Source of the DNA: a virus
DNA: 11,317 bases
UHGV virus genome: UHGV-0229837
Strand: one strand, 5' to 3'
Positions 5,837 to 6,263 of the stretch are shown one piece after another. The notes under the pieces are model-generated. The model searched no databases. It saw only the letters and a list, made by a program, of their open reading frames with translations, and was not told the origin of the DNA. Within the stretch, counting starts at the first letter, position 1. The number at the start of each line of letters is the position of its first letter. Position numbers and translations under genes: made by a program.

Positions 5837-6227
5837 ATACATATCTGGATTATCACCTGTTACGGTAAAAAGTGATTGCTTACTGTTTTTGTGAATGGCA
5901 TTGCAGCAGCCGGATAATGTCAGTGCTGGCTGACGGTGTGCTGGTGGCGGGTGTGGTGGTTGTTGCTTTCCCGTTGCTGAAAAAGAAAACGCCAGACTGT
6001 TAGCCGGGTATCAGTTAGCGGGAGAAATTTTTAAATACTTCACAATTCAGGCGGTTGACTGTTGTCTGGTTTGCGGGGAGTTTGTTAAAAGAAACTGGCA
6101 TGGTGAATCCCCCTGTGCGGAGGGGCAATCAGCGAGTAGGTATATGGGATAATCGCGGATTCAGGTGCTGGTACTGAATTCACCGGGAGGCACCCGGCAC
6201 CATGCAATGGCACATAGCGCCACTCTC

Positions 6228-6263
6228 CAGCCCCTCTCCGGAGGGGCTGTTTATATTGATTTT
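6228..6263 (+). terminator. Strong intrinsic terminator (perfect 9-bp stem CAGCCCCTC / GAGGGGCTG, loop TCCG, then TTTATATTGATTTT)
   Basis: Read directly from sequence; the U-run is on the + strand, so it terminates rightward transcripts; only about 20 nt from the 3' end of the convergent minus-strand gene. Confidence 0.55.

What the first reader, a model, noticed from the sequence alone, without database searches (positions are those of the whole stretch)
5840..6263. Hairpin-rich untranslated segment ending in a strong terminator: candidate sRNA or tiny hydrophobic peptide
About 390 nt downstream of the 5510-5836 ORF has no ORF of 60 codons or more on the + strand. It contains several GC-rich stem-loops (CCGGGAGGCACCCGG; CCCCCTGTGCGGAGGGG) and ends in a perfect 9-bp stem terminator with a U-run. 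A 28-codon ORF at 5917-6003 (MSVLADGVLVAGVVVVAFPLLKKKTPDC) would encode a single-helix hydrophobic peptide of the kind seen in type I toxins, but it lacks a clear SD.
Basis: seen in the sequence. Interest (0 to 1): 0.5.

Follow-up and report, generated by a model that had tools for sequence, protein, structure and literature searches.

The report
Known prophage small RNA STnc100
The hairpin-rich stretch is a copy of STnc100, a known small RNA carried by lambda-like prophages of E. coli just ahead of their lysis genes, and the tiny "peptide gene" next to it is the decayed tail of a known small phage membrane-protein gene, so the finding is real but ordinary.

Summary

**sRNA.** Window 6069-6258 (+) is a full-length match to Rfam RF02076 STnc100 (132 bits, cut-off 47). 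This is the prophage sRNA family of EcOnc27/sRNA103, which lies downstream of stx2B and is Hfq-bound. PasD of EPEC is reported to be related. The sequence is at least 99% identical in 2,142 of the 2,870 matching E. coli records, out of 5,426 complete genomes.

- It lies in the "moron" slot of a lambdoid prophage, after Q, pR'-tR', two tRNAs and an unknown ORF, and before the lysis cassette.
- Comparison of more than 150 relatives shows a conserved four-helix core (P1-P4).
- The core also has a covarying pseudoknot between the segment after P2 and the P3 loop.
- A promoter-like signal places the start at P1 (about 6098).
- A variable linker (6206-6227) follows the core.
- An intrinsic terminator closes the unit (6228-6257).

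**ORF.** The 28-codon ORF is the 3' remnant of a DUF3927/TciB-like gene (intact homologues 51-55 aa). Its start codon is mutated and it carries 15-nt and 5-nt deletions. It is not a type I toxin locus.

**Verdict.** Already known, low interest. Targets, the true 5' end and the role of the conserved core remain open.

The parts
5872..6003 (+). Decayed DUF3927 / TciB-like small membrane-protein ORF. RefSeq aa from GTG 5872.
   Evidence: RefSeq CDS WP_000562553.1 'DUF3927 family protein'. Pfam PF13064 95.6 bits. PHROG 1470 matches only profile positions 23-51 of 54. The DNA alignment to intact 51-55-aa homologues shows start GTG to GTT, a 15-nt deletion and a 5-nt deletion causing a frameshift.
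6031..6061 (+). Upstream block conserved among E. coli-type copies (TTTAAAT..TCACAATTCAG..GTTGACT). Role unknown; possibly a second, distal promoter or start.
   Evidence: Phage BLAST hits begin at query 192-201, which is window 6031-6040. The block is conserved in the alignment of 30 E. coli-type upstream regions and in VT2-Sakai and Stx2c phages. EcOnc27 runs at about 235/247 nt on Northern blots, which implies a 5' end about 60 nt upstream of P1.
6062..6091 (+). Predicted sigma-70 promoter of the sRNA: -35 TTGTCT 6062-6067, 18-nt spacer, extended -10 TG 6083-6084, -10 TAAAAG 6086-6091. Predicted start is about G6098.
   Evidence: Position-specific signal over 154 unique upstream regions. 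TAnnnT sits exactly 14 nt before GGTGAAT in 70 of them, A is at -13 in 81%, and TTGAC-like hexamers sit at -38. In E. coli-type copies both elements are shifted 2 nt upstream, in step with a P1 that is 2 bp longer. This is inferred; no transcript data exist for this copy. The -10 lacks the final T, so the promoter scan did not list it.
6069..6258 (+). Extent of the Rfam STnc100 (RF02076) match.
   Evidence: 132.4 bits against a gathering score of 47, E 1.2e-29, model positions 1-206 of 206.
6098..6205 (+). Conserved structured core. P1 6098-6105/6198-6205. P2 6109-6113/6119-6124 with bulge A6121. Pseudoknot 6128-6134 (AUCAGCG) with the P3 loop 6166-6172 (UGCUGGU). P3 6157-6164/6174-6181. P4 6183-6187/6193-6197 with loop AGGCA.
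   Evidence: The MFE fold reproduces P1-P4. On 126 distinct sequences 87.3% of cells are paired, against 74% in shuffles and about 43% in slid controls, and 25 of 33 pairs show compensatory changes. For the pseudoknot alone, 66.6% are paired against 18-43% slid. In an alignment-free test, P3 is 8/8 paired in 92 of 158 sequences against 3% of cross-pairings. The pseudoknot is at least 6 bp in 86% against 24%.
6206..6227 (+). Variable linker between core and terminator (AAUGGCACAUAGCGCCACUCUC). Candidate seed or Hfq-contact region.
   Evidence: This region differs among copies while the core is conserved. The Hfq cross-link peak of EcOnc27 covers P4, the linker and the terminator (mapping of the coordinates onto L242). 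Phage mEp460 diverges exactly at 6206. The role is inferred.
6228..6257 (+). Intrinsic terminator: 9-bp stem 6228-6236/6241-6249, loop UCCG, tail UUUAUAUU.
   Evidence: A perfect-stem terminator follows 117 of 183 STnc100-type elements, with the stem ending at a median of 51 nt after the P4/P1 motif.

Best explanation
Window about 6062-6257 (+) is an sRNA gene of the STnc100 / EcOnc27 (sRNA103) / PasD family. It is carried as a 'moron' in a lambdoid E. coli prophage, between the Q-pR'-tR' control region and the lysis cassette.

**Shown here**
- Family membership.
- The pseudoknotted four-helix core.
- The terminator.
- The genomic position.

**Inferred**
- In the lysogen the RNA is made from its own sigma-70 promoter, starting at about 6098 and giving an RNA of about 160 nt. 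It may also arise from read-in transcripts of the upstream tRNA/ORF unit, giving longer species.
- It ends at the 6228-6257 terminator.
- It is held by Hfq at its 3' part.
- It acts in trans by base pairing through the variable linker (6206-6227), with the conserved core acting as a stable scaffold.
- During lytic growth, Q-modified polymerase from pR' reads through the terminator into the lysis genes.

The adjacent ORF 5872-6003 is a separate element: the non-functional 3' remnant of a DUF3927/TciB-like small membrane-protein gene.
For: **Membership.** Rfam RF02076 at 132.4 bits against 47, over the full model.

**Position.** Q (PF03589) is at 4151-4972, with holin, lysozyme and Rz at 7271-9311. 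The same order holds across loci: Q ends about 660 nt upstream and the holin starts about 490 nt downstream. This matches the published 'convergent sRNAs between moron CDS and lysis genes' (PMC4104026).

**Relatives are real RNAs.**
- Eleven STnc100 copies are listed in EDL933 with RNA-seq read counts, and one is Northern-positive (PMC5331693).
- EcOnc27 is Hfq-crosslinked, and its 247-nt form is destabilised without Hfq.
- PasD is Hfq-dependent with RIL-seq targets.
- PasD is said to share ancestry with STnc100.

**Independent transcription unit.** There is a family-wide promoter signal. Tandem arrays occur in which each unit has its own promoter-like sequence and terminator.

**Structure.**

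**Not the pR' leader.** A lambda-like pR' (TAAATT-N6-AACGATGGG) and tR' lie at 4978-5079.

**ORF decay.**
Against: - There are no expression data for this exact copy.
- Its -10 (TAAAAG) lacks the usual final T, and the simple promoter scan did not list it.
- EcOnc27 sizes (235/247 nt) are longer than the roughly 170 nt predicted from a start at P1, so the main 5' end may lie upstream.
- No target is known. A scan of the window found only 9-10-nt complementarities, which is chance level.
- P2 and P4 are near-invariant in sequence, not only in pairing. A pseudoknotted junction is also more elaborate than a base-pairing sRNA needs, so the core may have a function of its own.
- The Hfq evidence is by homology only.
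Confidence: 0.8

Rival explanations
1. The RNA is not an independent gene. It is the 3' UTR of the upstream moron unit (tRNA-Ile/tRNA-Arg plus ORF 5510-5836) and is released by processing. The terminator is simply that unit's terminator.
For: It is the first strong + strand terminator after the tRNAs and the ORF. In Stx2 phages the element starts about 75 nt after stx2B (PMC12370729). EcOnc27 species are longer than a P1-start RNA. The conserved block 6031-6061 extends upstream of the predicted promoter.
Against: There is a promoter-like signal at a fixed distance across genera. Tandem arrays exist with no intervening genes. Many copies have unrelated upstream genes. The two routes are not exclusive.
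Confidence: 0.3
2. The conserved pseudoknotted core is a ligand- or protein-binding cis element (riboswitch- or attenuator-like). It would tune termination at 6228-6257, and so read-through into iraM-antisense and lysis genes, or expression of the ORFs that directly follow it in some relatives.
For: The arrangement is a structured domain followed by a terminator. P2 and P4 are near-invariant. There is a covarying pseudoknot. Some relatives and a distant variant class lack a terminator and are followed directly by ORFs.
Against: No conserved alternative pairing links P1 to the terminator, and linkers and terminators are unrelated among copies. There is no match to any riboswitch family. Discrete terminated RNAs are seen for relatives. 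Downstream genes differ widely.
Confidence: 0.1
3. The 28- or 43-codon ORF encodes a functional single-helix membrane peptide, toxin-like or otherwise.
For: An open frame is retained. It has a hydrophobic helix followed by KKK. It is annotated as a CDS in RefSeq and the family is recognisable.
Against: The ancestral start codon is lost, two deletions are present, and the first hydrophobic segment is missing. There is no evident Shine-Dalgarno sequence. Identity across genomes reflects recent spread, not selection. There is no antitoxin RNA.
Confidence: 0.05
4. The region is protein-coding, as in the RefSeq partial 'hypothetical protein' on the minus strand (window 6088-6213) or the + strand frames through the core.
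For: RefSeq has a pseudo-CDS there. Short frames recur over the conserved motif.
Against: The distance between the two conserved anchors varies from 64 to 111 nt with no 3-nt periodicity. Substitutions are compensatory in helices. The recurring frames are explained by the conserved RNA motif.
Confidence: 0.02

Closest known systems
STnc100 (Rfam RF02076), Gammaproteobacterial prophage sRNA
   Same: Full-length covariance-model match, the same helices, a terminator, and the same prophage location.
   Different: Nothing essential. The covarying pseudoknot between the segment after P2 and the P3 loop is not part of the Rfam consensus shown. I could not find it described in the papers read.
EcOnc27 / sRNA103 of Stx2 phages (E. 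coli O157:H7)
   Same: Homologous core and promoter-proximal block, and the same slot: co-directional with pR' and downstream of the moron.
   Different: The upstream gene is stx2B there, while here it is ORF 5510-5836 plus a DUF3927 remnant. The linker, the P3/pseudoknot sequence and the terminator differ. The convergent anti-sRNA partner (AsxR) is absent here, and an iraM-like gene converges instead.
PasD1/PasD2 of EPEC E2348/69
   Same: Reported to share structure and ancestry with STnc100. They are Hfq-dependent and lie near Q and lysis genes.
   Different: PasD is too divergent to be found by BLAST from STnc100, according to the preprint, and has different seeds and targets. I did not have the PasD sequences, so this was not compared directly.
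Lambda 6S RNA / StxS (the short pR'-tR' leader)
   Same: A short terminated RNA upstream of the lysis genes in a lambdoid late operon.
   Different: It is a different element. This window has its own pR' (-10 TAAATT 5000-5005), pause element AACGAT (5012-5017) and tR' (5053-5079) directly after Q. STnc100 lies 1.1 kb further downstream and is highly structured.
Type I toxins (Hok, Ldr, Ibs, TisB and similar)
   Same: A small hydrophobic ORF in a prophage.
   Different: It belongs to DUF3927/TciB-like, whose ancestral form has two hydrophobic segments. It is decayed here, has no overlapping antisense RNA, and matches no type I family. A genuine hok/sok locus lies elsewhere in the window (1656-1826 onward).

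Membership tests
STnc100 (RF02076) | Covariance-model score at or above the curated gathering score, over the whole model | tested here: met
   132.4 bits against 47, model positions 1-206 of 206, E 1.2e-29.
STnc100 (RF02076) | Closing helix P1 enclosing hairpins P2, P3 and P4, with pairing kept by compensatory changes in relatives | tested here: met
   P1 has 6 of 8 pairs with changes on both sides, P2 has 3 of 5, and P3 has 8 of 8. P4 is almost invariant.
STnc100 (RF02076) | Intrinsic terminator about 50 nt after the core | tested here: met
   6228-6249 plus UUUAUAUU. The family median is 51 nt.
STnc100 / EcOnc27 / PasD | Location in a lambdoid prophage between Q/pR' (and morons) and the holin-lysozyme cassette, co-directional with pR' | tested here: met
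   PMC4104026.
STnc100 / EcOnc27 / PasD | A discrete transcript that is bound or stabilised by Hfq | not testable with these tools
   Known only for relatives.
Type I toxin-antitoxin | An intact, translatable small hydrophobic ORF | tested here: not met
   The ancestral start is mutated, there are 15-nt and 5-nt deletions, and only the C-terminal 29 aa are homologous.
Type I toxin-antitoxin | An antisense or overlapping antitoxin RNA, or membership of a known type I toxin or antitoxin family | tested here: not met
   There is no Rfam match besides STnc100 in 5400-7300, even at E up to 1. Pfam and PHROG place the ORF in DUF3927/TciB-like. STnc100 is co-directional and does not overlap the ORF.
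pR'-tR' leader RNA (lambda 6S, StxS) | Starts at the Q-dependent late promoter directly downstream of Q, with a sigma-70 pause element in the initial transcribed region | tested here: not met
   That unit is at 4978-5079, 1.1 kb upstream of the finding.
Riboswitch (any described class) | Match to a described aptamer family, and an expression platform whose alternative pairing involves the aptamer's closing helix | tested here: not met
   There is no other Rfam family at E up to 1. Linkers and terminators are not conserved among copies. Ligand binding itself cannot be tested here.

The most novel reading that the evidence does not exclude
The STnc100 core may be a dedicated binding or recognition module, for a host or phage protein or for a small ligand, rather than a passive scaffold. 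Phages would reuse it with interchangeable 3' parts: different seeds plus a terminator, or directly a coding region.

The supporting features are:
- a pseudoknotted four-helix junction, with P4 running directly into the 3' strand of P1, so the two could stack;
- P2 and P4 nearly invariant in sequence across Enterobacteriaceae genera;
- a distant variant class that Rfam does not recognise.

The family would then be more than a set of Hfq base-pairing sRNAs.
Probability: 0.2. Interest if true: 0.6.

Novelty: already known. Interest (0 to 1): 0.22.

Why it matters
For this window it matters little. The element is a common, already catalogued prophage sRNA, and the peptide idea falls away.

It is useful for annotation. 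RefSeq places a pseudo 'hypothetical protein' over the sRNA and calls the decayed DUF3927 remnant a gene.

At family level the function of STnc100 is still unknown, although it is present in about half of complete E. coli genomes and sits next to stx2. The pseudoknotted core defined here can be tested directly. So can the predicted promoter, whose extended -10 TG is the site of a polymorphism reported to predict haemolytic uraemic syndrome (HUS).

Tried and rejected
- **Lambda 6S/StxS-type pR' leader.** Rejected. A lambda-like pR'/pause/tR' lies at 4978-5079, and in Stx2 phages the element is downstream of stx2.
- **Type I toxin.** Rejected.
- **Convergent anti-sRNA partner (AsxR/AgvB).** Looked for on the minus strand after the terminator. 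None was found even at E up to 1.
- **Bidirectional terminator for the convergent iraM-like gene.** The minus-strand side has no U-tract, as read directly from the sequence.
- **Cis targets of the linker within the window.** Only 9-10-nt matches were found, which is chance level.
- **Alternative pairing between P2 and the terminator (both contain GGAGGGG).** This is present here but not in other copies, so it is treated as coincidence.
- **MAFFT plus RNAalifold alone.** This missed P3 and the pseudoknot because the centre of the alignment was poor. A covariance model (R1) and an alignment-free test were used instead.
- **Functions of genes that follow the terminator-less variant class.** PHROG hits were all 'unknown function'.
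- **EDL933 record.** NC_002655 is not in the collection, so the Northern-positive copy could not be compared directly.

Full report
**Observation.**
- There is no + strand ORF of 50 aa or more between 5836 and 6868.
- The two GC-rich hairpins are at 6109-6125 and 6183-6197.
- The perfect 9-bp terminator stem is at 6228-6249, followed by UUUAUAUU.
- The 28-codon ORF at 5917-6003 encodes the stated peptide.

The segment is not one unit. It contains a small ORF (5872-6003) and, separately, a structured RNA gene.

**Identity of the RNA.** A scan of the whole window against Rfam gives a full-length match of 6069-6258 (+) to RF02076 STnc100. The score is 132.4 bits against a gathering score of 47, with E = 1.2e-29. 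A permissive scan of 5400-7300 finds no other family. The predicted RNA folds into the consensus helices at -69.5 kcal/mol, z = -2.95.

The window is an E. coli lambdoid prophage. The 821-base stretch 5480-6300 is 100% identical in many complete genomes. The 226-nt element is at least 99% identical in the best hit of 2,142 records. It is present in 2,860 of 5,426 genomes, with up to 12 copies per genome.

**What is known about the family.**
- STnc100 copies lie about 75 nt downstream of stx2B in Stx2 phages (PMC12370729).
- They overlap EcOnc27/sRNA103, an Hfq-crosslinked RNA of about 235/247 nt (PMC4104026 supplement; PMC12711010; PMC7873438).
- EDL933 has eleven copies listed with RNA-seq read counts, and one was confirmed by Northern blot (PMC5331693).
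- PasD1 and PasD2 of EPEC are Hfq-dependent with RIL-seq targets (PMC8550237). They are reported to share ancestry with STnc100 (bioRxiv 10.64898/2026.05.13.724894).
- Tree et al. described the conserved position: convergent sRNAs between the moron coding sequence downstream of pR' and the lysis region.

**Context in the window.** The order is:
- hok/sok (1656 onward);
- DUF968, RusA and Q (PF03589, 4151-4972);
- a lambda-like late promoter directly after Q: -35 TTGATT 4978-4983, -10 TAAATT 5000-5005, pause element AACGAT 5012-5017 and tR' 5053-5079;
- tRNA-Ile2 (CAT) and tRNA-Arg (TCT);
- ORF 5510-5836 (PHROG 2873, unknown function);
- the DUF3927 remnant;
- STnc100;
- a convergent iraM-like gene (6284-6619, minus strand; NF007393);
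- DUF1737, holin, YdfR-like, lysozyme and Rz.

STnc100 is therefore not the pR'-tR' leader (the lambda 6S/StxS type). It sits 1.1 kb further into the late operon, in the moron slot. Across 266 related elements the commonest real neighbours are Q ending about 660 nt upstream, with holin, lysozyme and Rz starting about 490, 670 and 1,100 nt downstream.

**Anatomy from comparison.** Exact-motif scans with CCGGGAGGCACCCGGCACCA (6183-6202) returned more than 120 loci each from genomes and from viral contigs. The genome hits were mostly from genera of Enterobacteriaceae, with a few chance or short-contig hits elsewhere. A covariance model of the core (R1) found 132 copies in 100 sources.

On 126 distinct sequences, 87.3% of pair cells are standard pairs. 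The shuffled control gives 74.0% and the slid controls about 43%. Changes on both sides occur in 25 of 33 pairs, and the covariation score is 0.362 against 0.142 (0 of 500 shuffles reach it).

The helices in window coordinates are:
- P1: 6098-6105 with 6198-6205;
- P2: 6109-6113 with 6119-6124, bulge A6121;
- P3: 6157-6164 with 6174-6181;
- P4: 6183-6187 with 6193-6197.

The seven bases after P2 (6128-6134, AUCAGCG) also pair with the P3 loop (6166-6172, UGCUGGU), forming an H-type pseudoknot.
- Sixty-eight different helix sequences keep this pairing.
- A contiguous helix of at least 6 bp occurs in 86% of sequences, against 24% of cross-pairings.
- On the model-fitted alignment the pseudoknot columns are 66.6% paired, against 18-43% when slid.
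- The pseudoknot is not in the Rfam consensus line, and I did not see it in the papers read.

The invariance of P4 in the first data set is partly by construction, because the scan motif included it. With the 5' motif as an independent anchor, the P4 hairpin is still intact in 103 of 111 unique viral elements.

**Transcription unit.**
- Anchoring 154 unique upstream regions on GGTGAAT shows a TAnnnT hexamer exactly at -14 in 70 of them. A is at -13 in 81%, and TTGAC-like hexamers sit at -38. This is a sigma-70 promoter that would start transcription at the first base of P1.
- In E. coli-type copies both elements lie 2 nt further upstream and P1 is 2 bp longer.
- In the window this gives -35 TTGTCT (6062-6067), TG (6083-6084), -10 TAAAAG (6086-6091) and a start near G6098, so an RNA of about 160 nt.
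- This is inference. The -10 is imperfect, and the EcOnc27 sizes imply that longer species starting near the conserved block 6031-6045 also exist.
- A perfect-stem terminator follows 117 of 183 elements at a median of 51 nt.
- Tandem arrays of three to five units, each with its own promoter-like sequence and terminator, occur in other genera. This fits independent trans-acting RNA genes.
- The linker between core and terminator is variable. In EcOnc27 it lies under the Hfq cross-link peak. It is the likeliest seed region.

**The small ORF.**
- RefSeq annotates 5872-6003 as a 43-aa 'DUF3927 family protein'.
- Pfam PF13064 scores 95.6 bits.
- PHROG 1470 ('TciB-like') matches only profile positions 23-51.
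- Intact homologues next to other STnc100 copies are 51-55 aa with two hydrophobic segments and a GTG start.
- Against them, the window copy has the start changed to GTT, a 15-nt deletion and a 5-nt deletion that shifts the frame.
- There is no antisense RNA and no type I toxin family match.
- The linkage of DUF3927 to STnc100 is loose, at about 30 of 266 elements.

**Mechanism and rivals.** The best-supported reading is a prophage sRNA that is terminated in the lysogen and read through by Q-modified polymerase in lytic growth. It would be Hfq-associated and act in trans through its variable linker. Membership is near certain. The mode of action rests on homologues.

- **Rival 1:** it is mainly a processed 3' UTR of the upstream unit. 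This is compatible with the best reading and is not excluded.
- **Rival 2:** the core is a cis-acting sensor. This is weakly favoured by the sequence invariance of P2 and P4 and by relatives that lack a terminator and precede ORFs. It is disfavoured by the lack of any conserved alternative pairing and by the diversity of downstream genes.

**Verdict.** The peptide/toxin interpretation is wrong. Interest is low for the window itself. The pseudoknotted, sequence-invariant core, the variant class and the promoter polymorphism noted below are the only points that go beyond what I found in the literature.

Noticed in passing
window 4978-5079 (+): A lambda-like late control region lies directly after Q: -35 TTGATT, -10 TAAATT (5000-5005), start at about A5012, the sigma-70 pause element AACGATGGG in the same register as lambda pR', and a tR' hairpin at 5053-5072 with a T-run. 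It would give a 6S/StxS-like leader of about 67 nt, although Q here is the PF03589 type.
   Followed up: partly
L242 2540-2560 (VT2-Sakai) against L281 (Stx2c_5044); equivalent to window 6080-6098: The two polymorphisms reported as HUS-predictive downstream of stx2B are a T/C SNP at +90 and a T deletion at +103 (PMC12711010). They map to the TG of the extended -10 (TGTTAAAAA against CGTTAAAAA) and to the stretch just before P1 of the predicted STnc100/EcOnc27 promoter. They may therefore act on sRNA transcription rather than on the RNA body. This is inference only.
   Followed up: partly
L011 2315-2443, L012, L018, L028, L036, L039, L057, L116, L151 and others: A distant variant of the core, with P2 replaced by GCGGCUCAGCGC but the same P1, P3, pseudoknot and P4. 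It scores below the Rfam cut-off (31.9 bits against 47) but is found by my core model at 55-69 bits. It has no terminator and is followed directly by phage ORFs of unknown function.
   Followed up: partly
L102 5467-6548, L031 6367-7003, L030, L020, L048: Tandem arrays of three to five STnc100 units about 220-270 nt apart. Each has its own promoter-like sequence, a distinct linker and a terminator. They occur in Superficieibacter, Enterobacter and others.
   Followed up: partly
window 5510-5836 (+): An ORF with a strong match to PHROG 2873 (231.7 bits, unknown function) that is not annotated in the identical RefSeq record. It sits in the slot that stx occupies in Stx phages.
   Followed up: partly
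window 6088-6213 (-): RefSeq places a partial pseudo 'hypothetical protein' over the sRNA core. It is very likely spurious.
   Followed up: no
L243 3001-3367 (phage mEp460) against window 5840-6206: Phage mEp460 is 99.7% identical up to the last base of P1 (6206) and then diverges, with no terminator. The 3' edge of the core is therefore a mosaic breakpoint.
   Followed up: no
window 6284-6619 (-): An iraM-like anti-adaptor gene (NF007393, 161 bits) converges on the STnc100 terminator, in the place where O157 prophages carry the anti-sRNAs AsxR and AgvB.
   Followed up: no
window 1656-1826, 9528-9912, 11079-11277 (+): Other Rfam hits: sok antitoxin next to hokD, a cspA-type thermoregulator leader ahead of a 70-aa cold-shock gene (9673-9885), and IS009 RNA, which falls inside the 10736-11317 ORF that RefSeq annotates as terminase small subunit.
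   Followed up: no
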